IMG/VR virus record: IMGVR_UViG_3300042291_000666 | Coordinates: 54,326-118,325 of that record | Direction: 5' to 3' (one strand) | Source of the DNA: a virus | DNA: 64,000 nucleotides | Shown: positions 25,125-40,242 of the stretch, piece by piece | Position numbering within the stretch: position 1 is the stretch's first letter | How the letters are laid out: every line of letters begins with the position of its first letter | Position numbers and translations under genes: made by a program | The notes under the pieces: generated by a model | What the model was told of the DNA's origin: nothing | Database searches by the model: none | What the model saw: only the letters and a program-made list of their open reading frames with translations

Positions 25125-28100
25125 ATGGCACAGCAAAATGAAAATCCTGGGACATCTTCCGTAAATACTAATTCATTCATAAAAGGAATGAATAAAGATA
25201 TTACGCAAGCAATGGAACCAAAAGAAAGTTGGTGGCATGCACGTAATGCTATGAACAATTCTACTGATGGTGACCTTGGTGTAATTGGCAATGAACCTTC
25301 AAATTTACAATGTGGTGTAATACCATATACAATTATTGGGGCTATACATAGATTTGGTGACCAATGGGTTGTGTATTCTACTGATGATGTAAATTCAGAA
25401 ATTGGAACATTTGATGATAGTCAATGTAAATATGAAGTTATTGTAAATGATCCTTGTTTAAATTTTAATAGAAAGTATTTAATAACTGGTGCAGCAAAAG
25501 AAAATTTTGATTGTACTTGGCAAGTATATTGGGATGATGGAAACAATCCTTCACGTTCATTAAACATTAATAAAGTACCATGGATCAGAACTATATCATC
25601 TGCACCTGGTGATCCATGTATTACATATAATGATACAACACAATTAAATTGTGAAAAAATAAGATTAGCTCCTTTGGTTGATACACCTTGTGTTACGTTA
25701 AGTAAATCAATTGATGGTGGTATGTTACAAAATGGAGCATATCAAGCATTCATTGCTTATATTGAAACTGAACAAAAGGTAACTGATTATATTGGTATTT
25801 CTAATGTTCAAACATTATGGTCACATTCTGGTACAGGAGGTTCATTAAATATTACAGTAAGTAATTTAGATAAAGATTATGATTACTATGAGTTAGTATT
25901 ACTTGTAAGAAATCAAGGTCAAATATATGCTAAACGTATAGGTAGTTATAGTACACAACAACAAGATATTAATATTGATTATATTGATGATACATTAGTA
26001 GCTGTAAGTTTAAAGACAATTCCTCAAAGAAGTCCTGCTTATGAAAAATCAAATGCAATGTATGTTGTAAATGATTGGTTAATTAGACAAGGACCTGTAA
26101 GTCAGTTTGATTTTAACTATCAACCAATAGCAAATGATATCAAAGTTAATTGGGTATCAAATCAAATAGATTCTAGTTATTATCATTTAGGTGGTAATAA
26201 GTTGGGATTTTTAAGAGATGAACAATATGCATTCTTTATTAGATGGATTTATAATACAGGAGAGAGATCTTCTTCATATCATATTCCAGGAAGAGCACCA
26301 AGGCCATTTGCAACCCCTTCAGGGACATTTCTAGAAACAGATGTTATATACGGTAATAATGTTTTAGATTCTGCAGGAGACCCTTTATTTAAGGTTTATA
26401 ATACAGGAACAATTACATCATCTAATTTAACAGAAGTTCAACCAGATGGTTCATTAATTATTGCTAGAGGTGATATGGCATATTGGGAATCAACAGAAAG
26501 ATATCCTGCTAATAGACCTGAGATTTGGGGTGACCTTTGTGGAAAACCAATTAGACACCATAAGTTCCCTACTGAAGAAGTAGGGGGTGCAAATTCACCA
26601 TTGCATATAAGTACAACAGCAGGAGATTTAATTAATGTTCTAGGTGTTGAGTTTACAAATATTGGAAGACCAAAATATAATGACGGAACTTATATAACAA
26701 ATGTAGTTGGTTATGAAATATTAAGAGGATCTAGAGGTGGTGCTAAATCTATTTTAGCAAAAGGATTATTTAGAAATATGCGTAAGTATACTATACCTAA
26801 TGCAGAAAATCTAATAGGTGGATCTGTTCAAGGTTTATATCCTAACTATCCGTACAATGATTTAAGACCTGATGTTTATTTTCATGATGGTAATGCTAAT
26901 AGTATTCATAGAACAGAAGGTTGTGATAACTATAGTCAATCAATGGGTAGTTTTAGACCATTGGGTGCAGCTCCTGCTATAGCTGGTGATCCGTCTGGAT
27001 ATTCAAAAAAAGTATTTACTTTTTCATCTCCAGATCTAATGTTTACTAAACCATTTCTGAATGCATATGAAACTAGAATTTATGGATATTTAACTGGTAA
27101 TCAATCAGGTTATTTTAAAGCATCAGAAGATCATCCTCAATTTAAATTATTAAGAAATGGTGCAGCAATAATGGCTGCAATTGTAGGTTTAGGTTATGCT
27201 GTGGCTCAAGTTCAAGGTGATAGAGGAAGTTCAAGATCATCAGGAACTTCAGGTAATTATATGGCAAATGATTTTTATTTGGGTTTTGGTACAGGTGGTA
27301 CAACAGGTCTTGGTGCAAGTGCTGCAGCAAATGCAGTTGGAGCTGGAATTAATGCCGGTTTAATTGCTACACTTTCAAGTGTATATGAAAATGTTGACAA
27401 TGGTGTAGCTTTAGCTGATTTATGGGTAGGTGGCTCAGGAATGGAATTTGCAAATCAATTATTTTCTACAGCTGCCCTTACAGTAGGTATAGCACCTGCG
27501 GGTTCAGGTGGTGAATATATAATCAATACTAATAAAAATACACCACTTTCTCAATTGCCTGGTGTGTTTAGAGCTATAGTTGCATTGTTTACAACAGCAT
27601 CTAACATTGCTATTGGTGGAAATGAAATAGTAGAATTAATTTATAACTTGGTTAATAAATCTGATTTTGTATTAAAATATAATTCAGCAGGTTTCTTTAA
27701 TGCATTTACAAAAATCAATACAGGATTGTTTAGAATTAAAAATACAGATTCAAATTATCTAGGTCAATCTTTTCAAAGTTTTGATAATGGAAATTACAAG
27801 ATAAATAATTTATTTAGACCTACTACGGTAGCAGTTTCTTTAAGTGATCCTATAGCAGAACCAAGTGTAGTTGATAGATCAAGATTTACAGTTGGTGGGG
27901 ATATGAATGCAAATTTAACTGTTAATGTTTATTCTGGTGATTATTTAACTAACCCATCAGAAAAACAAATAAGACCTATATCTGCTTATTATGGAGCTCT
28001 TAAATTTAATTTTGATAATCAGTATGGTCAACTAGATGGTATTAAACAAGTTCAAATGAGAGGTTGTGTAGAATACTTAGATCCTACTAAACCGGATGCA

Positions 28101-31100
28101 TTTAAATATTCTAGTTCAGCTATATTTGGTGGTGATATATTTATTACTAGATATACTGAAAAAGTTATAATGCCAATATTTGCACAATACTTATTAGGAC
28201 AACCTGATGAATTTACATATGATTATTCTCAACATGTTAATATACCTTATCCAAGATTTTGGTTAAATTCCCAAAAGTTTGATATGAGTAAATTAAGTAG
28301 AGAGATAGCATCTTTTGGTGCAATCAGTGGTAGTGATTTAGATGCATTGTTACCTAATGATTTATTTTACTTAGATAGAGGTGGTGATAGTTGTAATAAC
28401 TTTATCAATAGTATTGTTAACAATAGTGATCCTAATCCAATGTTTGCTATGAGATTTGCATATATGTATTCTCATTCAAATGGTATGTTAGATTTCTTTG
28501 TAGAATCTGAAGTTAATCTAGCTAATAGAGATTGGGAAGATAGACAAGATGCTAGAATATATGATGTATACAGTTATAATGATATTGATGAATTATTTCA
28601 TGCTCAGATTGAAAAGAAAGATAATTTTTATAAGTATGATGAATCATTAAGCCCATCTAAATTTGTAACACAGTTGGGTAGCTTTGGTGAGATTCAACCA
28701 AGATACTATGATCCATATACTGCAGAAAATTGTTATGTTAGTTATCCAAAAAGATTAATCTATTCATTGCAAGCACAAAAAGAATCTAAGAAAGATTTTT
28801 GGAGAGTGTTTTTGCCATTTAATTATCAAGACTTTAAAAACAAAGTAAGTGTAATTAAACCTATTAATAAGAATGGTGCACTTATATTTTTCCCATATCT
28901 ATCTCCACAAATGTTTCAGGGAATTGATACTTTAAAAACATCTTTAGATACTAAACTTACTATTGGTGATGGAGGTTTATTTAGCCAACCATTTCAAAAT
29001 GTTGTTAATTCAGATTTGTCAAATGAGTATGGTTCATGTGAAAGTTTAAGAAGTGTTATGAATACACCAGTAGGTTTGTTTTTTATATCTCAAGCTCAAG
29101 GTAAGATATTCCACTTTACTGGTCAAAATTTAGATCCAATATCTAATGCAGGAATGAAATGGTGGTTTAATAAATATCTACCATCTCAATTGGTTAAACA
29201 ATATCCTGGATTAGAAGATTCACCATTATCAGATAATCCTGTAGTAGGTGTAGGTTGTCAAACAATCTATGATCCTAATGATGATATAGTTTACTTTATG
29301 AAGAAAGACTATAGAGTTAAAGCTTCATATATTGCTGATGTTACATATACTGAAAAAAGAGGATTTGCTTTATCAGGAAATCCTATTACATTGGGAGATC
29401 CAATATTCTTTGATGATTGTTCTTGGACTGTAAGTTATGATCCTAAATCTAAAGCTTGGATATCATTCCATGATTGGCATCCAGAATTTGCATTGCCAAG
29501 TATTAACCATTTCTTTACTACTAAGACTATAGCTACTACTATTCCACAATGTCCTCCAGGTTATAATTTTAATTCTACTAATGGGTTATGTGAAAGATCA
29601 ATAAATATTAATGAGCCGGCTATTGTTACAGTAGATGAAATCAATTCTGTTGTTAATGGTGGACCAGTTAATTGTTTAATAGATATTGTTATTGCAATGG
29701 ATACATCTGGATCAACTAATTCAGGAGGACGCAGACAAGCACAATTAGCATGGTTAAATGCATTTTTAAGTGATTCTAATATAACTGCACCAATGGCAGC
29801 AGGAACAATGCAGATAGGTTTTACATCATGGGGTAGTGGTAATATAAATTATAATATACCTAATCCAGCTGGAGGTACTTGGTCAATGAGCAATACAGTA
29901 ACTCCAACGCAAGTTGCTGCTTGGTATAATGCTAATTGGACAGGTGGCGGTACTAATGTTTCTTTAGGTATGACTTCTGGTCAAACATTGTTAAATAATA
30001 AAGCAGCTAGTCAATTAGGTAATAGAAGTGCACAACCATTTTTTAGACAAATAATTATATTAGTTACAGATACAACAAGTGATCCTGGAAATATTGGTTG
30101 TCCATTTCAAGGTACTGGTGTTTCACCAAGTGCAACTGGTCCAGCAAATCAAAGAGTATATGCATTATTTTGTGGTGCAACTAGTGCTATACCAACTGGT
30201 AATGTATTAGGTAATATATCTTGTACACCGGGCCCTGTAAATGTTGATGGATACCAATTTGGAATTAATGCATCTGTGCCTGCAACTTTTGCTACTGTAG
30301 CAACAGCTATTGCTGGGTCTGTTTGTTCAATTCCATTTGTTTGTACTTGTGCTCCAGGTTATACAAAAGTATTTTTTAATCCAGCAACTAGTGTTTATAC
30401 ATCACCAACAGGTGTATGTGATAATATTACACCACCTGTATGTAGAAAAGTAACTTGTGCATGTCCAACATCTCCTCCGGGAAGTGTTACAACTACAACT
30501 GGTAATTGTGATGATGTTTATTTAATAGGTAATCCAACCTATGTGAATCCAAATCCTCAGATTTGTAATTTCTTTAAATATGAATCTACACCAGCTAATT
30601 ATAAAGTTGGTTCATTCTGGAGACATAATGTTAGATGTGATAGTTTTGCTAATTTCTATGGTACTGATTATCCATGGGAAGTAGAATTGGTTTCTAATAC
30701 TGGACAAATGGTTAATACTGTTAGAAGTATGGAGTATCAATTAGAAAGTTATGTGTACAAAGGAGATATGGGATTTGCTTGTAATGATGACAGATGGGAA
30801 GATTTAAACTTTAACTTTGATCAATCAATCATTTATAATAATGAGCAAGTATCTGGGTTACTACAATTAACTCCTACACCATATAACAATCCTATATTGG
30901 AGTTAAGTTATCCTATTATCACTACAAATAGCATAAATATATTATGTTCTAAAGTAGAACAAAAATATAGATTCAATCAATTTTATGACATTACTAATGA
31001 TAGAGGTGAATTTACAAATGCTGAACAGGCAATCTGGGATACACAGCCTAATGGATATATTAAAGTTTTAAATACTATAAACTTAAATTATAACAAACCT

Positions 31101-31223
31101 CCATTACAGCATAAGAAGTTTAGACATTATTATAATAATGTTATTTTAAGAAGAGTTAAATCAGAAAATAGAAAGATGTTATTGAGATTGAATAACACTA
31201 AATTACTTTTATCAATGAGATAA
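25125..31223 (+). CDS. Muzzle/tail stabilisation protein with inserted vWA domain
   Basis: 2032 aa. Starts SFIKGMNKD...ARNA (P22 gp10-like start) and contains FLRDEQYAFFIRW, KPIRHHKFP, GGDIFITRY and WTVSYDP...WISFHDW. MIDAS motif DTSGS at 29700. Confidence 0.8.
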   Translation: MAQQNENPGTSSVNTNSFIKGMNKDITQAMEPKESWWHARNAMNNSTDGDLGVIGNEPSNLQCGVIPYTIIGAIHRFGDQWVVYSTDDVNSEIGTFDDSQCKYEVIVNDPCLNFNRKYLITGAAKENFDCTWQVYWDDGNNPSRSLNINKVPWIRTISSAPGDPCITYNDTTQLNCEKIRLAPLVDTPCVTLSKSIDGGMLQNGAYQAFIAYIETEQKVTDYIGISNVQTLWSHSGTGGSLNITVSNLDKDYDYYELVLLVRNQGQIYAKRIGSYSTQQQDINIDYIDDTLVAVSLKTIPQRSPAYEKSNAMYVVNDWLIRQGPVSQFDFNYQPIANDIKVNWVSNQIDSSYYHLGGNKLGFLRDEQYAFFIRWIYNTGERSSSYHIPGRAPRPFATPSGTFLETDVIYGNNVLDSAGDPLFKVYNTGTITSSNLTEVQPDGSLIIARGDMAYWESTERYPANRPEIWGDLCGKPIRHHKFPTEEVGGANSPLHISTTAGDLINVLGVEFTNIGRPKYNDGTYITNVVGYEILRGSRGGAKSILAKGLFRNMRKYTIPNAENLIGGSVQGLYPNYPYNDLRPDVYFHDGNANSIHRTEGCDNYSQSMGSFRPLGAAPAIAGDPSGYSKKVFTFSSPDLMFTKPFLNAYETRIYGYLTGNQSGYFKASEDHPQFKLLRNGAAIMAAIVGLGYAVAQVQGDRGSSRSSGTSGNYMANDFYLGFGTGGTTGLGASAAANAVGAGINAGLIATLSSVYENVDNGVALADLWVGGSGMEFANQLFSTAALTVGIAPAGSGGEYIINTNKNTPLSQLPGVFRAIVALFTTASNIAIGGNEIVELIYNLVNKSDFVLKYNSAGFFNAFTKINTGLFRIKNTDSNYLGQSFQSFDNGNYKINNLFRPTTVAVSLSDPIAEPSVVDRSRFTVGGDMNANLTVNVYSGDYLTNPSEKQIRPISAYYGALKFNFDNQYGQLDGIKQVQMRGCVEYLDPTKPDAFKYSSSAIFGGDIFITRYTEKVIMPIFAQYLLGQPDEFTYDYSQHVNIPYPRFWLNSQKFDMSKLSREIASFGAISGSDLDALLPNDLFYLDRGGDSCNNFINSIVNNSDPNPMFAMRFAYMYSHSNGMLDFFVESEVNLANRDWEDRQDARIYDVYSYNDIDELFHAQIEKKDNFYKYDESLSPSKFVTQLGSFGEIQPRYYDPYTAENCYVSYPKRLIYSLQAQKESKKDFWRVFLPFNYQDFKNKVSVIKPINKNGALIFFPYLSPQMFQGIDTLKTSLDTKLTIGDGGLFSQPFQNVVNSDLSNEYGSCESLRSVMNTPVGLFFISQAQGKIFHFTGQNLDPISNAGMKWWFNKYLPSQLVKQYPGLEDSPLSDNPVVGVGCQTIYDPNDDIVYFMKKDYRVKASYIADVTYTEKRGFALSGNPITLGDPIFFDDCSWTVSYDPKSKAWISFHDWHPEFALPSINHFFTTKTIATTIPQCPPGYNFNSTNGLCERSININEPAIVTVDEINSVVNGGPVNCLIDIVIAMDTSGSTNSGGRRQAQLAWLNAFLSDSNITAPMAAGTMQIGFTSWGSGNINYNIPNPAGGTWSMSNTVTPTQVAAWYNANWTGGGTNVSLGMTSGQTLLNNKAASQLGNRSAQPFFRQIIILVTDTTSDPGNIGCPFQGTGVSPSATGPANQRVYALFCGATSAIPTGNVLGNISCTPGPVNVDGYQFGINASVPATFATVATAIAGSVCSIPFVCTCAPGYTKVFFNPATSVYTSPTGVCDNITPPVCRKVTCACPTSPPGSVTTTTGNCDDVYLIGNPTYVNPNPQICNFFKYESTPANYKVGSFWRHNVRCDSFANFYGTDYPWEVELVSNTGQMVNTVRSMEYQLESYVYKGDMGFACNDDRWEDLNFNFDQSIIYNNEQVSGLLQLTPTPYNNPILELSYPIITTNSINILCSKVEQKYRFNQFYDITNDRGEFTNAEQAIWDTQPNGYIKVLNTINLNYNKPPLQHKKFRHYYNNVILRRVKSENRKMLLRLNNTKLLLSMR

Positions 31224-34200
31224 TGGAGAAAAAGATACAACAAAAAGAAAGTAGAGGATTACCAGGTGGCCCAAATGAGATGTTTACTTATACTACAGGA
31301 GTATTCTCTACAGAAGGATTTAGAATGGATAGCCCAGATGTAAATAATTATCAAAATATTATTCCATCTGGTTCTATTACCATGAAAGAAAGAGATGGTA
31401 GTCCTTTGAGAAAGGGACCAATCCATGGTATAGATAATCTAGGTAATGAGCAAGTTATGTATCCTGGATATAATTATGAATTTCCAGGTACAGAAGTAAC
31501 AGAAACATTGATGGCTAAAATGGGTGGTGCTCTATTAGATAAAACTATTGAGTGCGGTAATTGCGGTTGGGAATGGAAAGCTGCTGATGGTGGTTCTGAT
31601 GTTATGGATTGTCACAAGTGTGGTGGTAAAGGTTTGATAAAAGCTCAACAAGGACAGGAAATAAAACCACCATTAGGTGGAGGTAAATATTATACTACTG
31701 ATAATAAAGTAGTTGACTGGGGAACTGCTGAATATGAAGATGCTTATAATAGAGGTGAAGTATTATCTGATAAAGGTGTACGTTCTGAAGTAACCTTAGA
31801 TGGTGGAAAACTTGATGATGTAGTTATAAAAAATAATTACAAAAGAGGTTTTTGGGGAAAGTATAGAGATAAAATTATAGATGAAAATAAAGATGCAGGA
31901 TTACTAGGAGCTATTGCTGGTGTACCTATTTCAGCTGTAACAAGTCTTCCACAACTTGCAGCAACATATGGTATTACAGGAAAAATGGAAAGACCTTCTG
32001 AAGCAATGGATATAAAAAATCCTTATTTAGCTATGGGAGTTGATGCTGTGGCTGATCCTACAAATTTAGTTGGTGCAGGATTATTATCAAAAACAAGTTT
32101 GATTGCTCCAGAAATAAAACAAGGAATAAAAGTTTTAGGAAATTATGGTAATGATGTAATTCAAACATCAAAAGCAGCTGGAAAAATTAAGTTACCTACA
32201 TATGCAAATGCTTATAGATGGCAAGCTGATGTAGTACCTGAAAGCTTAGTTAATTGGGGTAAAAGTTTAACACCGGAACAACAATCACTAACAGGTTCTT
32301 GGTATACAGAAAATGTTGAGCAATTACCATTTTATATGAGAACAAGACCTGGATCTGGAAATGTTAATGTTTCAAGACTAAGTAATACAAAAATAGATCA
32401 CTTAAGGGAAACAATGTCTGATGCAGCAAAAGGTATGTCTGGTAAAGCAGAAAGTGTGGCTGCATCAAATACCAGTATGCCGGGTGAATTAATTCTTCCT
32501 GAAGCTTCAAGAAGTAATCTTAAAAAATTTAAGTTTGATGTTAACCCTAGTGAATATACCATACCTGATGAAAGTATTAAAAATCCACAATACCGTAATG
32601 CAGTTATAGATGAAAATACTACTGATATAATTAAACCTATGTTGGAAGCACAATATCAACCTATAATGGGTATACCTAGAAAATATTTTCCTTTTGCAGA
32701 AGGGGGTGAAACTATTCCTCCAACACAATATGTAGTTAAGAAAGGGGATACACTTGGTAAGATTGCTGCAGCAAACAATACTTCTATTGCAAGTATTATG
32801 AGAAACAATGAAAACATTGCTGATCCAAATGTAATTAGTGTTAATCAAAAAATTAATCTTGCAACTCAAAGTGCTGACGCACCTAAAGAAGAAGTATATA
32901 GAGATTGGGATACAATAAGAAATAAAAAAGATGAGATAAATAAATTATCTGATGAACAAAAGATCATACGCTATTACAATGACAAACCAGAAGAAAAGTA
33001 TCTTATATTAGATAAGAAGAATGCTGTAATGAAACTCTATACGGGTGGTAATTTTACAAAGTCATATGAGGTTGGTGTTGGTCAAAATCCTGGTGATGCA
33101 CAAACTGTTACTAAAGTTAAAGATGGTAAAACAGATTGGACAGGTGGAAACAAATCTACTGGTGCAGGTATTTATACTATATCAAATATTGATCCTGCTA
33201 GTAAAGAATATTATGGTTTGCCTGCATTTAATTTAAAAAATGAAAATGGTATTGAAGTAGCAACAACAATACATGGTACTCCAACATCTAGAAGAAGTAA
33301 GTTTAGTAATGGTACTGTTGTAGATAACAGAATGAGTAATGGTTGTATTAATGGTAAGTGTGAAGATCTTAAAGATTTATATAATGAATTAGAGATGGAT
33401 GCAAAAGTTTATATTCTGCCTGAAGACACCGGAAATAATTTTCAAATCATAGATGGTAAACCTGCATTAAAAGTATCTGCTCAAAACAGACAAAAATATA
33501 ATAGTTATGTTGATCAAAAAGGTGTTACACAAAAAGGTCAAGGTGCAAATCAAACAACTAAAACATTAGTATATAAACCAATTAAAGCATTCATTAATGA
33601 AAAAAAATTCAAAGAAGATGTATTTCAATGGAATGACTTTAATGATGAAAAAGAATATACTAATACTACAAAACCATTTATTGTTGGTTTAACTACAAAT
33701 AAAAAAGATGTCATGAAAGCTGCAAAGATTTCATCTGATGTTTATAATGAATTAGCTAAAATGGCTTTTGGTATATATGGAACTGAAAGTAATTTTGGAG
33801 ATGAGCACGTAGCTTTTGGAAATTTATTAAGAGCAGGTAATAAGTTTTTAGATCCTGAATCATCAAGTAGTCCTGATGTTAAATCAAAAGCAAGTACTTA
33901 TGGAGCTGATGAAAATTATAGAAGCGTTGGATATACTCAATTAAGATGGAACTATCTTAATAAAGATGAGAAGGCTGCATTAAAAGAAGTAGGTATTACA
34001 TCTAATAAAGATTTTCTTGATCCTAAAAAAGCAGCTATAGGTACAGTTACTGTATTAGGTATTAGATATAATCAACAACTTACTGATAAACAAAAACAAG
34101 AAGTTTGGAAATACTTACCTTCTAAGTGGAATAACCGTGCTAACTACGGTAGCCGTGTTAAAAGCAATTCATCTTATTTATCATTTAAACAATTAGATAA

Positions 34201-35434
34201 AAAACAGGAAGGTGGTGAATATATTCTAGAAGCTCAGAAAGGAAAAGAAACTGAAGACACTTCATGGACAGCATACTTAAATCCAGCAAACTGGGGTACA
34301 TCTAGATATGATGATGCAGGTACATTTAAAGAAGCCTTTAGAGCAGCACGTGTTGAAGGTGATTCTGATTTCCTATGGAAGGGTGATAGATATTCTACTG
34401 AATTAAAAAAGAATACAGCACCAGCTAAACCAAAAGGAATAACTCCAGAAATTTTAATAAGACAAGCATATAGAGAATCTGCATTTAATCCTAAAGCTGT
34501 TTCTCCAGCTGGTTATAAAGGTTTAGGACAAATTGGAGATGATGTAATTAAAGATTACAAAAAAGCAAATAACATTGCAGGTAATGTTGATCCTTTTAAC
34601 ATGAAACAAAATTCTGAGGTTCAAAAGTATTCAATGAATGAATTGTATAATTCAAGTTTTATTAATAAACCAGGACAATCAGAACAAGTAAGATTAGCAA
34701 AAACATTAGCTGCATATAATTGGGGTAGAACTAATGTTAGTAATTTACTAAATGATTTAAAAGAAGATGGTGTTGACATTTATAATAGTTTAGACTGGAT
34801 TAGTAAATTACCAGATGAACCAAAAAAATATATAAATGATATATTATTACAAAAAAACACTACCTTTAACACTGATTTTTCTAAGGCATTAGGTAATCAA
34901 AAAAATATGCCAATAAAAAGATTATATGGTTTTAGAGATGGTGGTGAATCAAAACCAGGTCCATTAATGATAGCATATAATAGATTGCCAGCAGAAAAGA
35001 AAATGGGTGGTGCTATAGATTACAAACAAGTTGGTGGTGAAAAGAAATATTCAGAACAAGATGGTAGATTGGTTGTAACTACAAAAAAAGTTGATACAGC
35101 AGATGGGCCAAGATACTATCAAGCTAAATCACCTGATTATAATTTTTCAAGAGAATTAGTAGATACAAGATCAAGAACAAGGGTTGCTGATTCAATACCA
35201 AAAGCCAATTTAGATCCACGTATAATTGAATCTTTAAATAAAAAACAATTTGGTGGTCAATTAAATTCTACTAATATTACTATGTATAAAGATTATATAA
35301 AAGGTAATATTGGTAATGAAGAACAAGCAGTAAAAAACTATGATAAATTAAATAGGATTTACTATAATAAAGCAAAAGAGTTAGGAATGACTGCTGCAAA
35401 TTACATAATGACGTATGTTGTAGACAATTCTTAA
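31223..35434 (+). CDS. Multidomain cargo protein: Zn-ribbon, ART-like, LysM, YkuD L,D-transpeptidase and two lysozyme/SLT-like domains
   Basis: CGNC..CHKC. LysM: YVVKKGDTLGKIA...IADPNVISVNQKINL. YkuD: IHGT...SNGCIN. Lysozyme-like: GTESNFG...SVGYTQL. SLT: RESAFNPKAVSPAGYKGLGQI...LAAYNWG. Confidence 0.8.
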   Translation: MEKKIQQKESRGLPGGPNEMFTYTTGVFSTEGFRMDSPDVNNYQNIIPSGSITMKERDGSPLRKGPIHGIDNLGNEQVMYPGYNYEFPGTEVTETLMAKMGGALLDKTIECGNCGWEWKAADGGSDVMDCHKCGGKGLIKAQQGQEIKPPLGGGKYYTTDNKVVDWGTAEYEDAYNRGEVLSDKGVRSEVTLDGGKLDDVVIKNNYKRGFWGKYRDKIIDENKDAGLLGAIAGVPISAVTSLPQLAATYGITGKMERPSEAMDIKNPYLAMGVDAVADPTNLVGAGLLSKTSLIAPEIKQGIKVLGNYGNDVIQTSKAAGKIKLPTYANAYRWQADVVPESLVNWGKSLTPEQQSLTGSWYTENVEQLPFYMRTRPGSGNVNVSRLSNTKIDHLRETMSDAAKGMSGKAESVAASNTSMPGELILPEASRSNLKKFKFDVNPSEYTIPDESIKNPQYRNAVIDENTTDIIKPMLEAQYQPIMGIPRKYFPFAEGGETIPPTQYVVKKGDTLGKIAAANNTSIASIMRNNENIADPNVISVNQKINLATQSADAPKEEVYRDWDTIRNKKDEINKLSDEQKIIRYYNDKPEEKYLILDKKNAVMKLYTGGNFTKSYEVGVGQNPGDAQTVTKVKDGKTDWTGGNKSTGAGIYTISNIDPASKEYYGLPAFNLKNENGIEVATTIHGTPTSRRSKFSNGTVVDNRMSNGCINGKCEDLKDLYNELEMDAKVYILPEDTGNNFQIIDGKPALKVSAQNRQKYNSYVDQKGVTQKGQGANQTTKTLVYKPIKAFINEKKFKEDVFQWNDFNDEKEYTNTTKPFIVGLTTNKKDVMKAAKISSDVYNELAKMAFGIYGTESNFGDEHVAFGNLLRAGNKFLDPESSSSPDVKSKASTYGADENYRSVGYTQLRWNYLNKDEKAALKEVGITSNKDFLDPKKAAIGTVTVLGIRYNQQLTDKQKQEVWKYLPSKWNNRANYGSRVKSNSSYLSFKQLDKKQEGGEYILEAQKGKETEDTSWTAYLNPANWGTSRYDDAGTFKEAFRAARVEGDSDFLWKGDRYSTELKKNTAPAKPKGITPEILIRQAYRESAFNPKAVSPAGYKGLGQIGDDVIKDYKKANNIAGNVDPFNMKQNSEVQKYSMNELYNSSFINKPGQSEQVRLAKTLAAYNWGRTNVSNLLNDLKEDGVDIYNSLDWISKLPDEPKKYINDILLQKNTTFNTDFSKALGNQKNMPIKRLYGFRDGGESKPGPLMIAYNRLPAEKKMGGAIDYKQVGGEKKYSEQDGRLVVTTKKVDTADGPRYYQAKSPDYNFSRELVDTRSRTRVADSIPKANLDPRIIESLNKKQFGGQLNSTNITMYKDYIKGNIGNEEQAVKNYDKLNRIYYNKAKELGMTAANYIMTYVVDNS

Positions 35435-35448
35435 ACCTTAAAAATTAG

Positions 35449-35477
35449 TAAATCTATAGATTTATTTGTATATTAAT
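35449..35477 (+). promoter_or_regulatory. 16-bp palindrome abutting a putative promoter
   Basis: TAAATCTATAGATTTA (35449-64) is a perfect palindrome, immediately followed by TTTGTATATTAAT (35465-77). Confidence 0.55.
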
Positions 35478-35494
35478 AATATAATCTAGACAAC

Positions 35495-37663
35495 GTGAAA
35501 GTAAACAAAATAAGTTTAAAGCAACAAGGAGGGGAGAATACTGAACAAGTTGAGGCACAGCCACAACAACAATCAGTAGATCCTGCTATACAACAAATTT
35601 CAGATTTTATTTCTCAAGCAATAAGTCAAGGACAAAATCCTGCTGAAGTTGTTATGTCTTTGGTTGAACAACAAGTTGACCAACAAACTATTGGTCAAGC
35701 TTTGATGATGAATGGTTTTGAAGAAAATGATATCATGTCTTTGTTTGAACAAATGAGTCAAGGTCAACAACCAGAAGAACAAGTTGGTGGTGAACCAATG
35801 CCTGCTGATCAATTAGATCAAACCTCACAACAATTAACTGAAGATGAGAGCATGCATTTTGATGATATGTCAGAAGAAGAAACACAAGAACCAGGGATGT
35901 CTATGGGTAAATCAGGTATAGAAATTAAACCTGAGAATGAAGGTAAGTTTACTAGATGGGCTGAAGCACGCGGTATGTCCGTACAAGAAGCTGCAAGTAG
36001 AGTTATGTCTAATACAGATGAATATCCTCCAGCTGTAGTTAAGATGGCTAACTTTGCTAAAAATGCTGCTGGTTGGAACAAAGAATATGGTGGTGAAAAT
36101 TATCAAATGGGTGGTGTTCCTCAAGGTAAAGTAGCATCAGTTGATAATGTTAATGCTAGAAATAAAGATATGAATTGGCAAAGAGCCCCTTTATATTTTA
36201 ACCCAATGGAACTTGAATATAGCAATGACAACTTTAGTTTAGGTAAAGCTGCGGCTGTTGCTTATGGTGGTTATAAAGAATTTTTAAGTGGTGATGATAA
36301 AAATAAAGATGGTATCAAAGATGGATTCTTTAGAGATGGTGCTAAAAAATCTGCAATAAGGGATGCATCTAAAGGTAATTATTATAATTATGAAATTACT
36401 AAAGATGTTAATGATCCAAATACATATAAGGCGGATAATCTTGATTTATTTAATGCTTCAAAAAATAAAGGTAATTTAAGAACATCTGAGCAATTTGATA
36501 AAGATGTAATGGATTATTCTAGATTTAATTATAATGTAGATACAAATGGTTATGATGGTATTAAAAGCAGCAGACCAATAGATGAAAGAATTTATAATTC
36601 AGCAGGTAACAAAAATGCTTTAGCTGGTAAGGACTTTAATTATTTTAAAGAGTTTCTTGGAGATAAAGATACTAGAGAAATGCTATTAGGTACTCAAGAT
36701 GATCCTGAAGCTGGTCTATTAAGTATAGATCAATATGGTCAAGATTCATCTGTTAGACCAGGTAGTCCTAATCCTTATGAATATAATACCTATATGGGTA
36801 TTAATAAACGTGGTGTTAATCAAAATGCAATGATACCTACTGGAAGCAATGGTCAACCTGCTCCTAGTATGTTTAATATTCAACCAGCACCAGTATCAAT
36901 GATGAATGCAATTCCATCTAATACTTCAACAGATACTCCACAAAAATCATTTCAACAATGGTATGCATCTGGAGATGCTGTAAGAAATCAAGGTAAAAAT
37001 CAAGAACAATTAAAATCTGAGTATGACGCTTATCTTAAACAAGGATTTAAATATGGTGGTGACTTAGATAAAGCTCAATTTGGAATCCCTCAAGGTTTTG
37101 ATTTTAGTTCTCTTACTAATTTTGATGATCCTTTTGGTATGAATGATCCAAGGTTTGGACAGACTGCTAATTATGCTGATACAGCGGGTTATAATCAACA
37201 ACAAACTTTAGCTGCAAATAATCCAGCAACTAATACTACAGCAGGACCAACTGCACCAACAACACCTACATTTGGGCCACCAAAAGTAGAAAGGACTAAT
37301 AAACTTGAAGGTGGATTAAATAGATTTATGGATAGCCCTGGTGTACAAGGTTATGCAAAAGTTTCTGACTTTGCTGTTAAAGCAGCTAATGTTGCTAATG
37401 ATTGGTTTAGAGATCAAACAGTTAATCAAGCAAGAGAAGATAACTTTAATAAACTTGGTGCTGATTATCAATACGCTACTGCAGAAGATCCTTTTAATAA
37501 AAGAGGAATGTGGGATGTTAATACCGGAACAGCTGGTAGTGAAGGAGATAGAACGGTTGGTTTATACATGAGCAAATATGGTGGTGAAAACAATACTGTA
37601 AATGTTGATTCAAATTTATTAGCAAAATTAATTGCAGCGGGAGCTGACATTGAAATATTATAA
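35495..37663 (+). CDS. Cargo (internal virion/ejection) protein
   Basis: 722 aa, GTG start, Gln-rich low complexity. Contains the IEIKPENEGKFT...KMANFAKNAAGW mini-domain and repeated xxxGG motifs. Confidence 0.65.
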   Translation: MKVNKISLKQQGGENTEQVEAQPQQQSVDPAIQQISDFISQAISQGQNPAEVVMSLVEQQVDQQTIGQALMMNGFEENDIMSLFEQMSQGQQPEEQVGGEPMPADQLDQTSQQLTEDESMHFDDMSEEETQEPGMSMGKSGIEIKPENEGKFTRWAEARGMSVQEAASRVMSNTDEYPPAVVKMANFAKNAAGWNKEYGGENYQMGGVPQGKVASVDNVNARNKDMNWQRAPLYFNPMELEYSNDNFSLGKAAAVAYGGYKEFLSGDDKNKDGIKDGFFRDGAKKSAIRDASKGNYYNYEITKDVNDPNTYKADNLDLFNASKNKGNLRTSEQFDKDVMDYSRFNYNVDTNGYDGIKSSRPIDERIYNSAGNKNALAGKDFNYFKEFLGDKDTREMLLGTQDDPEAGLLSIDQYGQDSSVRPGSPNPYEYNTYMGINKRGVNQNAMIPTGSNGQPAPSMFNIQPAPVSMMNAIPSNTSTDTPQKSFQQWYASGDAVRNQGKNQEQLKSEYDAYLKQGFKYGGDLDKAQFGIPQGFDFSSLTNFDDPFGMNDPRFGQTANYADTAGYNQQQTLAANNPATNTTAGPTAPTTPTFGPPKVERTNKLEGGLNRFMDSPGVQGYAKVSDFAVKAANVANDWFRDQTVNQAREDNFNKLGADYQYATAEDPFNKRGMWDVNTGTAGSEGDRTVGLYMSKYGGENNTVNVDSNLLAKLIAAGADIEIL

Positions 37664-37665
37664 CT

Positions 37666-40242
37666 ATGGCAAAAATTAAAATAAATAGTTTACCTGCTGG
37701 CTTTAAATTAGTTAATGGTAAAATAGAAGAAGATCAAATGATGAAAGAAGGTGGCTATGTAACTGGTGATCAAGCCGGCTATGGATTAGTTACCCTACCA
37801 CAGGAGTATTATAATAATGCTAATATGAATACTACCAGAGATGAATCTGTAAGATATAGTTTATCTGGCGTACCTAGGGACAAAGCAAACATTGAAGCTG
37901 AAGGTGGTGAAACTGTGTTAACTGATTTAAACAATGACAATCAATTTGGTCTATATAATATAACTGGACCAAGACACTCTAAAGGTGGTGTGCCAATGTT
38001 TTTACCAGAACAATCTTTTATTTATTCTGATACAGATAAAATGAGATTTAATCAAGAAGAATTAGCTGAGTATGGTATTGAAACTAAATTAAAAATGACT
38101 CCTGCTCAAGTATCTAAAAGATATGATCTTAATAAGTACTATGGTACTATGAAAGATCAATTTGCAGATGAGATAACAGCGCGTAGTTCTGAACTTATGT
38201 TAAAGAAAAACATGATGGGCTTATCTAAATTAGCATTTGGTCAAGAACTTAAAAAGAAATTTGAAGATGGTGTGCCTTTAGCGGCTCATCCATATTTAGT
38301 TTCTATTGGAGAAGATCCAATTGAGTTTACTGCTAAAGTAGAAAACATTACTAAAAAGCAAGCTCAGATGAAAGCATTTGCTGCTTTACCTCCTGATCAA
38401 CAACAACAGTTATTACAATTGCAAGAAATGATGGCTCAAGTTGATGAACAAGAAGGTCAACAAGAAGAACAATCTTTTGAAGATCCATCAATGCAAGATC
38501 CTGGAATGCAAGAACAACAATTGGCTATGGCTGATGAAGATGTTATGGCTATGGGTATGCCTGAAGATGATATGTCTGAAGATGGTATGGCAAGATATGG
38601 TATGGAAATGGGAATGTATCAAGATGGTAAAGAAACACCTGTTAATCCTCTTCCTAAAGATCATCCAAAATATGCAGAAGCACAAAAATTAATTGATTCT
38701 GGTAAATATAAAGTTGTTAAAGGTGATGTTGTAAATGGTACTCAAATGTATAAGTTTGAATTACTTGAACCTGTTGATCCAAAATTTGAAGCAGAAAGAA
38801 AAGCTCAATTAGATAAGCAAATTGTTACTGCTCAAGATCAAAAAGGTACAGGTTCTGTATCTATATATGATGAAAATCTTACTCAACAAGGAAAAGCAAT
38901 CCAAGAAAATAAATTGGGTGCTTATAAATATGGTATATTATCAAATAAAAATAGACCTACATTACAAAATAAAGCAGGTGATAAAGCGTATGGTTCAGCA
39001 GATATTTCAAAACCAGAAGCAAAAGCGGATTTTTATGATAGATGGGGTGATGTTATAGAAAAAATACCTGGGTTTGATTATGATAAACCTACAATGGTGG
39101 ATGCTAACGGTAAGGCAATAGCAGATCCACAATGGACTCAGTTTCAAAAATTAGCTGAAGAAACAAGAAGAAAAGAACATATTGCTGCATTTGGTAATGA
39201 TAAAGATTATATACCTTATTTTAGAAGTGATACAAAAGCTAAAGATTATAAACCAGGTTCAGCTTTTGATGGTAAAATAGGATTGCATACATATAACACT
39301 CCGCGTTTTAAACTTGCTCCTGTAGAACCCGTTACAACTTTTGGTGTTAAAGTACCAGATCCAGAAAGACCTGATATAGAAATTCCTCCGGTTAAAGAAT
39401 ATAAAAGACCTCCAGCAGAATGGTGGAGACAAGATAAAAATAACCTAAGAACGTTGGGTTTAATTGAAGATAACTTATATTTGCCATGGGCACCAGATGC
39501 TGCCCCAGCTAAAATAGATTATGTATTAGATGATTGGAGAAGTAATGCTAATGCAAATTTAGCAGCTGCAAACACTATGGCTGGAGCATTAGGTGCTGCC
39601 GGTGGACCACAGGCTGTAGCTAATTCAAATATTCAAGGTACTGCTTTGCAAGGTATTGCTGAAGGAATCAATAGAGTTAATAGTAATAATGTTGGTATTA
39701 TGAATCAGGTTGCACCAATGCAAGCGCAATTGAATATGCAGACTGATGCAATTAATCAGGGTAGAAATATTAAGGTTTATGATGATACTCAAAAAACATT
39801 ACAAAATGCGGATAACTTTCAGAATTGGAAGATTGCTAAACAAAATGAATTGTTTAATACTGCACTTACTAATAGAGCTAATACATATAACTTAAATTCA
39901 ACATATGATTACTTTGGTATTAGTCCAGAAGATGCTGGAGCTATTGAGTTTACAAATAGTAAAGCTTTGAGAAAAGTTGGAAAAAGCGCAGACCCAATGA
40001 AAAACTTTTATGATCAAGTTGCTGACTATCATAAAGAAACCGGTAAGCCAATGCCTGACGCCCTTATCAAAGCATTATATCCAGGTCAAACAGCAAGTGC
40101 AGATCCTGATATAACTAATGTACAAGCAGAGTGGGCAAAAAAAGGTCTTCCACCACAATATGTACAACCTCAAATGGGTAGATCAGGAAAAGAAATAAAA
40201 AGAATGGTAGTACCATTTTACACAGGAAAGATGGGAACATAA
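37666..40242 (+). CDS. Cargo (internal virion/ejection) protein
   Basis: 858 aa with an NIEAEGGETV...GPRHSKGGVP...FIYSD module and an Asn/Ala/Gln-rich helical C-half. Confidence 0.65.
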   Translation: MAKIKINSLPAGFKLVNGKIEEDQMMKEGGYVTGDQAGYGLVTLPQEYYNNANMNTTRDESVRYSLSGVPRDKANIEAEGGETVLTDLNNDNQFGLYNITGPRHSKGGVPMFLPEQSFIYSDTDKMRFNQEELAEYGIETKLKMTPAQVSKRYDLNKYYGTMKDQFADEITARSSELMLKKNMMGLSKLAFGQELKKKFEDGVPLAAHPYLVSIGEDPIEFTAKVENITKKQAQMKAFAALPPDQQQQLLQLQEMMAQVDEQEGQQEEQSFEDPSMQDPGMQEQQLAMADEDVMAMGMPEDDMSEDGMARYGMEMGMYQDGKETPVNPLPKDHPKYAEAQKLIDSGKYKVVKGDVVNGTQMYKFELLEPVDPKFEAERKAQLDKQIVTAQDQKGTGSVSIYDENLTQQGKAIQENKLGAYKYGILSNKNRPTLQNKAGDKAYGSADISKPEAKADFYDRWGDVIEKIPGFDYDKPTMVDANGKAIADPQWTQFQKLAEETRRKEHIAAFGNDKDYIPYFRSDTKAKDYKPGSAFDGKIGLHTYNTPRFKLAPVEPVTTFGVKVPDPERPDIEIPPVKEYKRPPAEWWRQDKNNLRTLGLIEDNLYLPWAPDAAPAKIDYVLDDWRSNANANLAAANTMAGALGAAGGPQAVANSNIQGTALQGIAEGINRVNSNNVGIMNQVAPMQAQLNMQTDAINQGRNIKVYDDTQKTLQNADNFQNWKIAKQNELFNTALTNRANTYNLNSTYDYFGISPEDAGAIEFTNSKALRKVGKSADPMKNFYDQVADYHKETGKPMPDALIKALYPGQTASADPDITNVQAEWAKKGLPPQYVQPQMGRSGKEIKRMVVPFYTGKMGT

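What the first reader, a model, noticed from the sequence alone, without database searches (positions are those of the whole stretch)
31511..40194. Cargo polyproteins segmented by about 19 copies of an xxxGG / xxxG(K/Q)E motif: candidate processing or packaging code
Seen: three consecutive cargo genes repeat a short motif, often at module boundaries. ORF 31223: MAKMGG 31511, KAQQGQE 31640, FAEGGE 32693 (just before LysM), KKQEGGE 34199, AQKGKE 34232, FRDGGE 34931 (just after SLT), KKMGG 34997, YKQVGGE 35021, KKQFGGQ 35240. ORF 35495: KQQGGE 35519, MGKSG 35903 and KEYGGE-NYQMGG 36080 (bracketing the IKPENEGKFT mini-domain), FKYGGD..KAQFG 37046, SKYGGE 37571. ORF 37666: MKEGG 37741, MARYG..MYQDGKE 38587, MGRSGKE 40174. 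The codons differ, so conservation is at the peptide level. Inference: recognition sites for a maturation protease that releases individual effectors inside the head, or repeated capsid-targeting tags, so that any domain flanked by the tag gets delivered. Candidate proteases are the HEAFH zincin of the RNAP protein or the EAEGGE/GPRHSKGG module of ORF 37666.
Basis: partly seen in the sequence, partly recalled or inferred. Interest (0 to 1): 0.8.

Follow-up and report, generated by a model that had tools for sequence, protein, structure and literature searches.

The report
Gly-Gly junction motif in crassvirus cargo
Three injected "cargo" proteins of a crAss-like phage are built from swappable modules joined by a short, conserved Gly-Gly motif; whether a protease cuts there is still untested.

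Summary
The motif is concentrated in the three genes after the muzzle gene: GGE occurs 9 times in 2,983 aa, against 6 times in the other 34,185 aa, and 0 of 2,000 composition-preserving shuffles reach 9.

The link to module boundaries is the strongest result. In five distinct relatives, large insertions and deletions start or end at the motif. In 126 homologues, 588 of 1,939 homology breakpoints lie next to GG, against 176 expected. In the AlphaFold model of the 722-aa protein, 7 of 7 copies sit in low-confidence linkers beside folded domains. The first cargo protein of five named crassviruses is also unusually GG-rich.

The protease reading is not shown. Seven protease families gave no hit. 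The Glu after GG is not conserved, which argues against a G-x-E site. The EAEGGE/GPRHSKGG "protease" module best matches the portal-bound domain of phiCrAss001 C1. That published structure is ordered across two GG copies.

Best reading: a conserved hinge at cassette junctions, flanked by direct DNA repeats. Cleavage remains a live minority hypothesis.

The parts
31223..35434 (+). Cargo protein 1 (P0001, 1403 aa). A polyvalent, peptidoglycan-directed ejection protein: N-terminal Zn-ribbon module, LysM 503-545, YkuD 592-731, SLT 1068-1176.
   Evidence: ORF. Pfam LysM 3.3e-12, SLT 8.6e-12, YkuD 2.8e-9. PHROG 'internal virion protein with endolysin domain' 2.6e-7. It lies directly after the muzzle gene 25125-31223 (Pfam crAss_MUZ 7e-28).
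31511..31528 (+). Motif copy MAKMGG (residues 97-102).
   Evidence: GG is kept in 5/5 relatives. In L005 a 103-aa insert ends exactly at this motif.
31640..31660 (+). Motif copy KAQQGQE (residues 140-146). Left border of the variable cassette; its last 18 nt (31643-31660) form the left direct repeat.
31661..34231 (+). Variable central cassette (about residues 147-1003). It is absent in L001 and L005 and replaced by unrelated sequence in L002, L003 and L006.
   Evidence: Orthologue lengths 539-1403 aa; alignment.
32693..32710 (+). Motif copy FAEGGE (residues 491-496), 7 residues before LysM.
34199..34249 (+). Motif copies KKQEGGE (993-999) and AQKGKE (1004-1009). Right border of the cassette; 34232-34249 is the right direct repeat, matching 31643-31660 at 15 of 18 nt.
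   Evidence: L005 carries a single copy fused directly to TEDTSW.
34931..34948 (+). Motif copy FRDGGE (residues 1237-1242), after the SLT-containing module.
   Evidence: GG kept in 5/5 relatives.
34997..35041 (+). Motif copies KKMGG (1259-1263) and YKQVGGE (1267-1273).
35018..35236 (+). Optional 73-aa module (residues 1266-1338). Present in the window, L001 and L006; absent in L002, L003 and L005. It is flanked by direct repeats at 35024-35038 and 35243-35257, identical at 14 of 15 nt.
35240..35260 (+). Motif copy KKQFGGQ (residues 1340-1346).
   Evidence: GG kept in 5/5 relatives.
35495..37663 (+). Cargo protein 2 (P0002, 722 aa; GTG start). A beads-on-a-string protein with folded parts at 30-89, 150-192, 280-445, 486-516 and 597-653, and an invariant C-terminal tail.
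   Evidence: 604 homologues. 118 of the 120 listed end in KLIAAGADIEIL.
35519..35536 (+). Motif copy KQQGGE (residues 9-14), the end of a 13-aa N-terminal leader.
35777..35794 (+). It follows the 30-89 helical domain.
35903..36115 (+). MGKSG (137-141), the mobile mini-domain IEIKPENEGKFT...GW (142-194), then KEYGGE and NYQMGG (196-207).
   Evidence: tblastn to 8 records of 4 named crassviruses, best E 5e-9. In the 6 phages that carry it, the mini-domain has GG (4), SG (1) or the start Met (1) upstream, and GG downstream in 5 by pattern match plus 1 by eye. This is the insertion hot-spot in 42 of the 120 listed homologues.
37046..37063 (+). Motif copy FKYGGD (residues 518-523). GG is invariant in 80/80 aligned homologues.
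37571..37588 (+). Motif copy SKYGGE (residues 693-698), 8 residues before the C-terminal helix.
37666..40242 (+). Cargo protein 3 (P0003, 858 aa), the likely counterpart of phiCrAss001 C1 (gp45).
37741..37755 (+). Motif copy MKEGG (residues 26-30), in a low-confidence linker between an N-terminal hairpin (13-22) and the folded domain.
   Evidence: Fused homologues have xxGG directly before the domain.
37831..38355 (+). Folded domain at residues 56-230, which holds EAEGGE and GPRHSKGG. It resembles the C1 portal-binding domain and is not a linker motif.
   Evidence: pLDDT above 90. 7qog_M ranks first of 48,161 chains at Z 5.6. E79, E82, H104 and S121 are invariant in 77 sequences.
38587..38634 (+). 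MARYG (308-312) and MYQDGKE (317-323), in an acidic, Met-rich linker.
   Evidence: A 41-aa deletion in L003 starts right after YQDGKET.
40174..40194 (+). MGRSGKE (residues 837-843), near the C-terminus.
   Evidence: SGKE or RGKE is kept in 5/5 relatives.

Best explanation
The motif is a real, conserved junction element of crassvirus ejected cargo proteins. Its form is a basic residue 2-3 positions upstream, a variable Y/F/M/E/D/Q at -1, a nearly invariant Gly-Gly, and often Glu or Asp next. It sits in disordered linkers at the ends of independently folding modules.

Most likely it works as an uncleaved hinge. It decouples neighbouring modules so the chain can be stored, and later threaded through the portal and tail, as beads on a string.

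Because every junction is encoded by nearly the same 15-18 nucleotides, it also provides in-frame microhomology. Cassettes (LysM/YkuD, SET, ART, unknown modules) can be inserted, deleted and exchanged there. That makes the payload of these proteins fast-evolving while the N- and C-terminal docking parts stay fixed.

Shown here: location at boundaries, conservation of GG, restriction to the cargo block, and direct repeats flanking cassettes. Inferred: the hinge role, recombination as the exchange mechanism, and absence of cleavage.
For: Boundaries in close relatives (my reading of the alignments). Across five distinct relatives I count 8 insertions, deletions or replacements of 20 aa or more. 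Six have the motif within 5 residues of at least one end, and three have it at both ends:
- the P0001 central cassette;
- the 73-aa optional module of P0001;
- a 93-aa insert in the L002 orthologue of P0002, lying between KKQDGG and YQMGG, which are adjacent in the other genomes.

P0002 family (120 homologues listed of 604 found):
- 83 of 115 insertions of 25 aa or more fall at residues 198-203 or 510-519, next to KEYGG/YQMGG or FKYGG.
- Three unrelated inserted modules each end in xxGG.

P0001 family (120 homologues listed of 229 found, plus the window and 5 relatives = 126 proteins):
- 588 of 1,939 BLAST homology breakpoints lie within -6..+5 of a GG. The null is 175.8 +/- 12.6, with a maximum of 217 in 200 randomisations.
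- Control dipeptides SS, NN, EE, AA, PG, DG, GS and GN are not enriched.

Structure: 7 of 7 P0002 copies lie in pLDDT<50 segments beside folded domains; 387 of the 722 residues are below 50.

Conservation across 80 homologues down to 47% identity:
- GG is 78/79 and 79/79 at KEYGG, 80/80 and 80/80 at FKYGG, and 80/80 and 75/80 at SKYGG.
- Position -1 flips between Y, E and D (35/26/16 at the first site).
- This fits a backbone or hinge requirement better than side-chain recognition.

DNA: the P0001 cassette is flanked by an 18-nt direct repeat (15 of 18 identical), and L005 has one copy and no cassette. The 73-aa module is flanked by repeats identical at 14 of 15 nt.

Generality:
- In phiCrAss001, cr108_1, cr128_1, cr127_1 and Rudgehvirus, the first protein after the muzzle has 17-24 GG per 1,000 aa. 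Muzzle, second cargo and RNA-polymerase proteins have 0-8.
- The mobile mini-domain sits at different places in six phages. Upstream it has GG (4), SG (1) or the start Met (1). Downstream it has GG in 5 by pattern match and in cr127_1 by eye.

Against cleavage: phiCrAss001 C1 is modelled as a compact domain over residues 425-552, which includes AFGG and TQGG (paper passages; sequence).
Against: A plain hinge does not need the conserved upstream Lys/Arg or the frequent Glu/Asp after GG. It also does not explain the short leaders ending in GG at the N-termini. The first GG lies within 35 aa in 104/120, 63/120 and 127/150 family members, against 23-31% expected from GG density (these are homologous positions, not independent events).

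The 7-10-residue spacers between two copies, and a 94-aa protein made only of copies, look more like recognition sites than hinges.

Two of the 8 large indels have no motif at either end.

The breakpoint statistics count related sequences, not independent events.

No experiment on any crassvirus tests whether the chains are intact.
Confidence: 0.5

Rival explanations
1. Processing code. The motif is the recognition site (xxGG then cut, or G-x-E then cut) of a maturation protease. The protease could be a phage zincin, the DUF2201-type metallopeptidase, or a host enzyme. It would release individual modules in the head or after ejection.
For: - The sites are conserved islands in otherwise divergent disordered linkers.
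- There are N-terminal leaders ending in GG, short spacers between two sites, and a 94-aa protein made of four copies.
- The window's P0002 and P0003 carry, as two separate genes, modules that phiCrAss001 gp45 has in one chain. Fused homologues have xxGG exactly where other genomes have a protein start.
- The literature expects such processing: fused giant crAss proteins are called 'likely cleaved' (preprint passages), and polyvalent proteins are proposed to be processed by zincins (passages).
- Ejection proteins of giant phages are cut at a short motif, AXE (passages).
- Two HExxH proteins exist in the genome.
- From memory, not from any call: several viral cysteine proteases cut after GG.
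Against: - There were no hits for Peptidase_S77, S78, C39, C48, C5, OTU or MPTase-PolyVal in a genome rated 100% complete.
- Glu after GG is variable: 34% overall, and E to Q in 5/5 relatives at one site.
- Position -1 is unconstrained.
- phiCrAss001 C1 is ordered across two copies.
- phiCrAss001 virion gels show bands at 85, 100, 150, 270 and >300 kDa. These sizes fit uncut 91, 155, 263 and 277 kDa cargo proteins (Methods passage; the band assignments are in a figure I could not see).
Confidence: 0.25
2. Repeated targeting or retention tag. Each copy is a short linear motif that binds a virion component (portal, tail-barrel rings, scaffold or capsid interior) or other cargo chains. Any module carrying it would then be loaded and held in the cargo zone, through multivalent 'sticker' contacts between an aromatic or Lys residue and the exposed Gly-Gly backbone.
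For: - The motif is multivalent, restricted to the virion-cargo block, and conserved in linkers.
- In phiCrAss001, the two ordered C1 pieces start at or 4 residues after a copy. Residues 214-245 follow AYGG 207-210, and residues 425-552 start with AFGG.
- A motif-only 94-aa basic protein could act as an adaptor.
Against: No partner is known. Position -1 tolerates Y, E and D, which is odd for a binding motif. The RNA-polymerase cargo proteins lack it yet are packaged in phiCrAss001.
Confidence: 0.15
3. Recombination scar only. The repeats merely record where cassettes were joined, and selection keeps any flexible linker. The peptide has no function of its own.
For: There are direct DNA repeats at two cassette borders, with a single copy where the cassette is absent. 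The GG core uses the preferred codons.
Against: GG is invariant across 80 homologues down to 47% identity at sites with no indel. It recurs in crassvirus families with different sequences. Neutral scars would decay.
Confidence: 0.07
4. Chance or composition: glycine-rich, low-complexity linkers happen to produce the pattern.
For: Plain GG is not enriched in the three proteins: 27 observed against 21.2 expected.
Against: 0 of 2,000 shuffles reach the observed GGE, G[GKQ]E or [KR].[YFMEQDV]GG counts. The copies are conserved in relatives. Breakpoints are enriched 3.3-fold at GG.
Confidence: 0.03

Closest known systems
Cargo protein C1 (gp45) of Bacteroides phage phiCrAss001 (Bayfield et al. 2023, PMC10172136; PDB 7QOG chain M)
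   Same: - Same gene position, right after the muzzle gene.
- The P0003 domain at residues 56-230 is the top structural match to the portal-bound C1 domain (Z 5.6).
- The P0002 mini-domain is shared with gp45 residues 376-429.
- gp45 also carries [AF/AY]GG copies at the edges of its ordered segments.
   Different: - No sequence-level relation to P0003: BLASTP E 1.3, hhalign probability 0.8%, and 0 hits for the profile against PDB sequences.
- Here the C1 functions are spread over two or three genes.
- P0001 adds a peptidoglycan-directed polyvalent payload.
- In the passages I read (find mode: 'proteol' 0, 'cleav' 0, 'protease' 0), the paper describes neither a motif nor processing.
Polyvalent proteins of phages and conjugative elements (Iyer et al. 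2017, PMC5512222)
   Same: These are large virion-delivered proteins with 2-15 shuffled effector domains. Homologues of P0001 combine LysM, YkuD, SLT, SET, PG_binding_1 and ART-PolyVal. Processing by embedded zincins is proposed for them.
   Different: That paper names no junction or linker motif ('linker' 0, 'glycine' 0 and 'crAss' 0 occurrences). The MPTase-PolyVal Pfam model finds nothing in this genome.
Prohead-protease cleavage motifs of T4-like and giant phages (AXE for SPN3US gp245, PMC10052503; the S/A/G-X-E form for phiKZ is recalled, not from a call)
   Same: A 3-residue motif, repeated in head and ejection proteins, defines propeptides and fragments. GGE, GKE and GQE fit G-X-E formally.
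   Different: Those sites need Glu at P1. Here Glu is variable and GG is the invariant part. No S77-type protease gene was found. Those cleavages mainly remove N-terminal propeptides, whereas here the motif separates internal modules.
Glycine-rich motifs that delimit hypervariable segments in T-even gp38 adhesins and are thought to mediate segment exchange (recalled from memory; not checked in any call)
   Same: Short conserved Gly-rich islands bracket exchangeable segments, and recombination between them swaps modules.
   Different: Those are receptor-binding tips of tail fibres and form part of a folded structure. Here the motif lies in disordered linkers of internal, ejected proteins.

Membership tests
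Crassvirus cargo protein C1 (phiCrAss001 gp45-like) | Gene lies directly downstream of the muzzle gene in the virion block | tested here: met
   Muzzle gene at 25125-31223 (Pfam crAss_MUZ 7e-28); the three ORFs follow it. The order is the same in phiCrAss001, cr128_1 and Rudgehvirus.
Crassvirus cargo protein C1 (phiCrAss001 gp45-like) | Portal-binding domain fold | tested here: inconclusive
   7qog_M ranks first of 48,161 chains and is the only one with Z>=5, but Z is only 5.6 (rmsd 4.8, 100 aligned, 19% identity). Foldseek found nothing at E<=1e-3.
Crassvirus cargo protein C1 (phiCrAss001 gp45-like) | Sequence homology to gp45 | tested here: inconclusive
   P0003: BLASTP E 1.3, hhalign probability 0.8%. 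P0002 shares only the roughly 55-aa mini-domain (tblastn 5e-9 to 2e-6 against other crassviruses).
Polyvalent proteins (Iyer et al. 2017) | Many unrelated effector domains in one polypeptide, with variable architectures among relatives | tested here: met
   P0001 has LysM + YkuD + SLT. Homologues of 792-2304 aa add SET, PG_binding_1, PF23473, PF23457 and ART-PolyVal. Orthologues range from 539 to 1403 aa.
Polyvalent proteins (Iyer et al. 2017) | Embedded zincin-like MPTase for processing | tested here: not met
   PF18818 gave no hit in the genome. An HEAFH motif exists in the separate 4502-aa protein, but Pfam finds nothing there at E<=0.1.
T4/phiKZ/SPN3US-type prohead-protease sites ((A/S/G)-X-E, then cut) | Invariant Glu at P1 | tested here: not met
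   Glu follows GG in 34% of 333 contexts. GGE changes to GGQ in 5/5 relatives at P0002 site 1. At other sites the residue after GG is E47/R21 and D60/N12/S8.
T4/phiKZ/SPN3US-type prohead-protease sites ((A/S/G)-X-E, then cut) | Cognate prohead protease gene in the genome | tested here: not met
   Peptidase_S77 and S78 gave no hit at E<=1 in a genome rated 100% complete. No protease annotation appeared among 15 structural-block proteins scanned with PHROGs or 23 window and genome proteins scanned with Pfam.
Double-glycine (xxGG, then cut) processing sites | Gly-Gly at P2-P1 in an exposed segment | tested here: met
   GG is nearly invariant and lies in pLDDT<50 linkers.
Double-glycine (xxGG, then cut) processing sites | Cognate cysteine peptidase (C39, adenain C5, Ulp1 C48, OTU) | tested here: not met
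   No hit for PF03412, PF00770, PF02902 or PF02338. A host enzyme cannot be excluded.
Double-glycine (xxGG, then cut) processing sites | Actual cleavage after GG | not testable with these tools
   There is only indirect evidence: the phiCrAss001 C1 model spans two copies. The MS coverage figure and the gel band assignments were not visible to me.

The most novel reading that the evidence does not exclude
The Gly-Gly junctions are a true processing code. A still unrecognised GG-directed peptidase (a phage zincin or DUF2201-type enzyme, or a host enzyme) would cut the cargo chains in the head or just after ejection. That would release peptidoglycan-degrading and host-takeover modules, short spacer peptides, and the fragments of the 94-aa motif-only protein. 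It would also explain how pieces of phiCrAss001 C1 can sit on both sides of the portal, about 420 A apart.
Probability: 0.25. Interest if true: 0.85.

Novelty: new variant of a known kind. Interest (0 to 1): 0.6.

Why it matters
Crassviruses are the most abundant phages of the human gut, and their injected cargo is poorly understood. A simple, conserved junction grammar has three uses:

1. It gives rules for reading the domain architecture of hundreds of unannotated cargo proteins (604 + 229 + 1,532 homologues or clusters).
2. It explains how their payload diversifies so quickly.
3. It turns the open question of whether crass cargo or polyvalent proteins are processed into a direct experiment, because it names the exact residues to look at in MS data or to mutate.

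If cassettes really can be exchanged at GG junctions, the same grammar shows where foreign modules are tolerated in phage-delivered proteins.

Tried and rejected
Searches that found nothing useful:
- megablast of the 9-kb region and tblastn of P0003 against 50,697 phage records: no match.
- Pfam and PHROGs on P0002 and P0003: no family.
- Fold search of the P0002 model (pdb_via_wide): only generic helical matches, best Z 6.6.
- Foldseek of the P0003 N-terminal model against PDB: nothing at E<=1e-3, with weak NSF-N/double-psi-barrel rows.
- P0003 profile against PDB sequences: 0 hits. hhalign against a 5-sequence gp45-family alignment: probability 0.8%.
- Peptidase Pfam models S77, S78, C39, MPTase-PolyVal, C48, C5 and OTU on the genome: no hit. 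Only DUF2201_N hit, at genome 25437-26117(-), 3.9e-20.

Tools that gave no usable answer:
- Complex prediction of P0003 1-245 with the P0002 C-terminal 133 aa returned 'no answer'. It is not used as evidence either way.

Readings considered and dropped:
- A DNA-level signal. GGTGGTGAA occurs 10 times, all on the + strand, and 88 of 91 sense-strand GGTGGT are in frame 0, so it is simply Gly-Gly(-Glu) in preferred codons.
- A T4/phiKZ-type G-x-E site, because Glu is variable.
- A protease in the EAEGGE/GPRHSKGG module.

Literature searches for prior description of such a motif or of crass cargo processing were. None of the listed papers I opened (PMC10172136, PMC6235969, 10.1101/2020.03.07.982082, PMC5512222, PMC10052503; find mode or one section each) describes it. 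Supplementary files and figures were not available.

Full report
**Context.** The window is the last 64 kb of a single-contig, 118,325-bp virus genome. It has direct terminal repeats and is rated 100% complete. It is a divergent crAss-like phage:
- The major capsid protein at 3435-5051 hits Pfam Crass_capsid (6.2e-30).
- The 2032-aa ORF at 25125-31223 hits the crassvirus muzzle family (7e-28).

The three ORFs of the finding follow the muzzle gene directly. After them come ORFs of 1088, 4502 and 1930 aa. In phiCrAss001 this same position holds cargo proteins C1 and C2 and the virion RNA-polymerase proteins. Nothing close exists among 50,697 deposited phage records. IMG/VR holds six loci, five of them distinct, at 71-76% identity.

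- Every peptide is at the stated place.
- Over the whole proteome (126 ORFs, 37,168 aa), 9 of 15 GGE and 14 of 24 G[GKQ]E lie in the three proteins, which make up 2,983 aa.
- Residue shuffles of each protein never reach the observed counts: 0 of 2,000 for GGE, G[GKQ]E and [KR].[YFMEQDV]GG.
- Plain GG is not enriched (27 observed, 21.2 expected). The signal is therefore the sequence context of GG.

A logo from 333 distinct GG contexts in 120 homologues of the 722-aa protein gives:
- position -3: K, Y, F or M;
- position -2: Q, K or E;
- position -1: Y, E or M;
- then G-G;
- position +1: E (34%) or D.

At the DNA level the core is mostly GGT GGT GAA. It is always in frame (88 of 91 sense-strand GGTGGT are in frame 0), so it is a peptide feature written in preferred codons.

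One conserved ORF outside the window also carries the motif. It is 94 aa, at genome 4273-4557, and consists of four copies. Nine related contigs keep it at 77-91% identity.

**Module boundaries.** This is the strongest result.

*Close relatives.* The orthologues of the first protein range from 539 to 1403 aa. The differences are cassettes bracketed by the motif:
- The whole centre, residues 147-1003, lies between KAQQGQE and AQKGKE. It holds LysM and YkuD. L005 joins KAQKGKE directly to TEDTSW.
- A 73-aa module lies between KKMGG and KKQFGG. In three relatives those two copies are 10 residues apart.
- A 103-aa insert in L005 ends at K(M/L)GG.

In the second protein, L002 has a 93-aa insert between KKQDGG and YQMGG, which are adjacent elsewhere. 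In the third protein, a 41-aa deletion starts after YQDGKET.

By my reading of those alignments, 6 of 8 indels of 20 aa or more have a motif within 5 residues of an end. Two do not: a 130-aa deletion in L003 and a low-complexity indel.

*Wider families.*
- In 120 homologues of the second protein, 83 of 115 insertions of 25 aa or more sit at the KEYGG/YQMGG or FKYGG sites. Three unrelated inserted modules each bring their own xxGG end.
- In 126 members of the first protein's family, 588 of 1,939 BLAST homology breakpoints lie within -6..+5 of GG. The null is 176 +/- 13, and eight control dipeptides are not enriched.
- These counts involve related sequences, so they show a consistent pattern, not a number of independent events.

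*Structure.*
- The AlphaFold model of the 722-aa protein is built from 80 sequences and has mean pLDDT 50. It has folded parts at 30-89, 150-192, 280-445, 486-516 and 597-653.
- All seven motif copies lie in pLDDT<50 linkers next to those folded parts.
- For the third protein, MKEGG lies in a low-confidence stretch between an N-terminal hairpin and a well-folded domain.
- EAEGGE, GPRHSKGG and FGQE lie inside that fold. They should be removed from the motif list.

**Generality.**
- The first protein after the muzzle has 17-24 GG per 1,000 aa in five named crassviruses: phiCrAss001, cr108_1 and cr128_1 (Steigviridae), Rudgehvirus (Intestiviridae) and cr127_1 (Crevaviridae).
- Their muzzle, second cargo and polymerase proteins have 0-8 per 1,000 aa.
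- A roughly 55-aa mini-domain (I.IK..G.FT...FA.N..W) occupies different positions in six phages. Upstream it has GG in four, SG in the window protein and the start Met in cr127_1. Downstream it has GG in five by pattern match, and in cr127_1 by eye.
- In phiCrAss001 C1, the two segments resolved by cryo-EM are residues 214-245 and 425-552. The first begins four residues after AYGG and the second begins at AFGG. The next copy, AYGG, follows at 560-563.

**What the proteins are.**
- P0001 is a polyvalent, peptidoglycan-directed ejection protein with LysM, YkuD and SLT. Relatives swap in SET, PG_binding_1, ART-PolyVal and unknown domains.
- The P0003 N-terminal domain belongs to a very large family: 1,532 representative clusters. 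It is 95-98% identical among close relatives, against about 76% for the whole protein.
- The best structural match of that domain, out of 48,161 chains, is the portal-bound domain of phiCrAss001 C1. Z is a modest 5.6, and sequence methods see no relation.

**Mechanism.** For cleavage:
- The motif copies are conserved islands in disordered linkers.
- Short leaders end in GG.
- There are 7-10-residue spacers between two copies.
- There is a motif-only small protein.
- Published work expects giant crass proteins and polyvalent proteins to be processed.

Against cleavage:
- No recognisable prohead, C39, clan-CE, OTU or MPTase peptidase was found. Only a DUF2201_N metallopeptidase-like ORF and the HEAFH motif are present.
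- The Glu after GG is variable.
- Position -1 alternates between Y, E and D while GG is 75-80 of 80. This points to a backbone requirement rather than side-chain recognition.
- The phiCrAss001 C1 model runs through two copies.
- phiCrAss001 gels show bands at about 85, 100, 150, 270 and >300 kDa, which fit uncut cargo. I could not see which band is which protein.

The cassette borders carry direct repeats at the DNA level: 15 of 18 nt and 14 of 15 nt. L005 has a single copy where the cassette is missing.

I therefore favour an uncleaved hinge or junction element that doubles as in-frame microhomology for cassette exchange (0.5). The alternatives are:
- a true processing code (0.25);
- a multivalent targeting or retention tag (0.15);
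- neutral recombination scars (0.07);
- chance (0.03).

**Novelty.** Eight literature searches and the passages I read in five papers turned up no description of this motif, and none of crass cargo processing sites. The kind of object is known: polyvalent, modular virion proteins, and short motifs that organise head proteins. The Gly-Gly junction grammar in crassvirus cargo appears to be new. The decisive test is cheap, because the exact residues are now named.

Noticed in passing
Outside the window: genome G000:C1:4273-4557 (+) = L012:4273-4557: A conserved 94-aa basic ORF made almost entirely of four motif copies (CREGGE, MRKGGD, AYKMGG, KYRGGG). It lies upstream of fibre-like genes. Nine related contigs keep it at 77-91% identity. 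It has no Pfam family.
   Followed up: partly
window 37621-37660 (P0002 residues 709-722): The C-terminal tail KLIAAGADIEIL is identical in 118 of 120 homologues and invariant in the 80-sequence alignment. It is the most conserved part of the protein and probably a docking peptide. A complex prediction with the P0003 N-terminus gave no answer.
   Followed up: partly
window 37666-38400 (P0003 residues 1-245): The N-terminal 245 aa are 95-98% identical among relatives that are about 76% identical overall. E79, E82, H104, S121, P146 and A147 are invariant in 77 diverse sequences. The leader MKVKIKNLP.GYKV.NGK..K is conserved across the family and persists even in internal, fused copies (for example P0380).
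   Followed up: partly
window 31223-31660 (P0001 residues 1-146): A conserved N-terminal module with a four-Cys zinc-ribbon (CGNCGWEW...CHKCGG). One source names a homologue 'RNA polymerase subunit RPC12/RpoP'.
   Followed up: no
Homologues of P0001 (P0133, P0150, P0153, P0175, P0176, P0194): The payload cassettes in relatives include SET methyltransferase (PF00856) and ART-PolyVal (PF18760) domains. These suggest host-takeover enzymes delivered with the DNA.
   Followed up: no
Outside the window: genome G000:C1:25437-26117 (-) = L022: A 386-aa ORF with HELLH that matches DUF2201_N 'putative metallopeptidase' (3.9e-20). It is the only peptidase-like Pfam hit in the genome.
   Followed up: partly
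window 43608-57116 and 57123-62915: The giant 4502-aa ORF has no Pfam hit at E<=0.1, although it carries HEAFH at residue 2053. The 1930-aa ORF has a PD-(D/E)XK nuclease match at residues 471-560 (1.7e-5).
   Followed up: no
window 21652-22857 and 7299-7826: An SbcD-like DNA-repair exonuclease (phrog_704, 2e-41) and a protein matching 'starvation-inducible transcriptional regulator' (phrog_858, 1.7e-17) sit inside the structural gene block.
   Followed up: no
window 13257-16721: A 1154-aa fibre-like protein with 20 GG and a C-terminal Peptidase_S74 intramolecular chaperone domain (residues 1060-1112, 2e-9). That domain is a self-cleaving module and is unrelated to the cargo motif.
   Followed up: no
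L007:21988-24516 (phiCrAss001 gp45) and L009, L010 (cr108_1, cr128_1): A recurring GG-x5-GG unit (AFGGWLNTQGG, AFGGWVGTHGG, ELGGPINTHGG) precedes the portal-bound domain in Steigviridae. The window's KEYGGENYQMGG has the same spacing after the mini-domain.
   Followed up: partly
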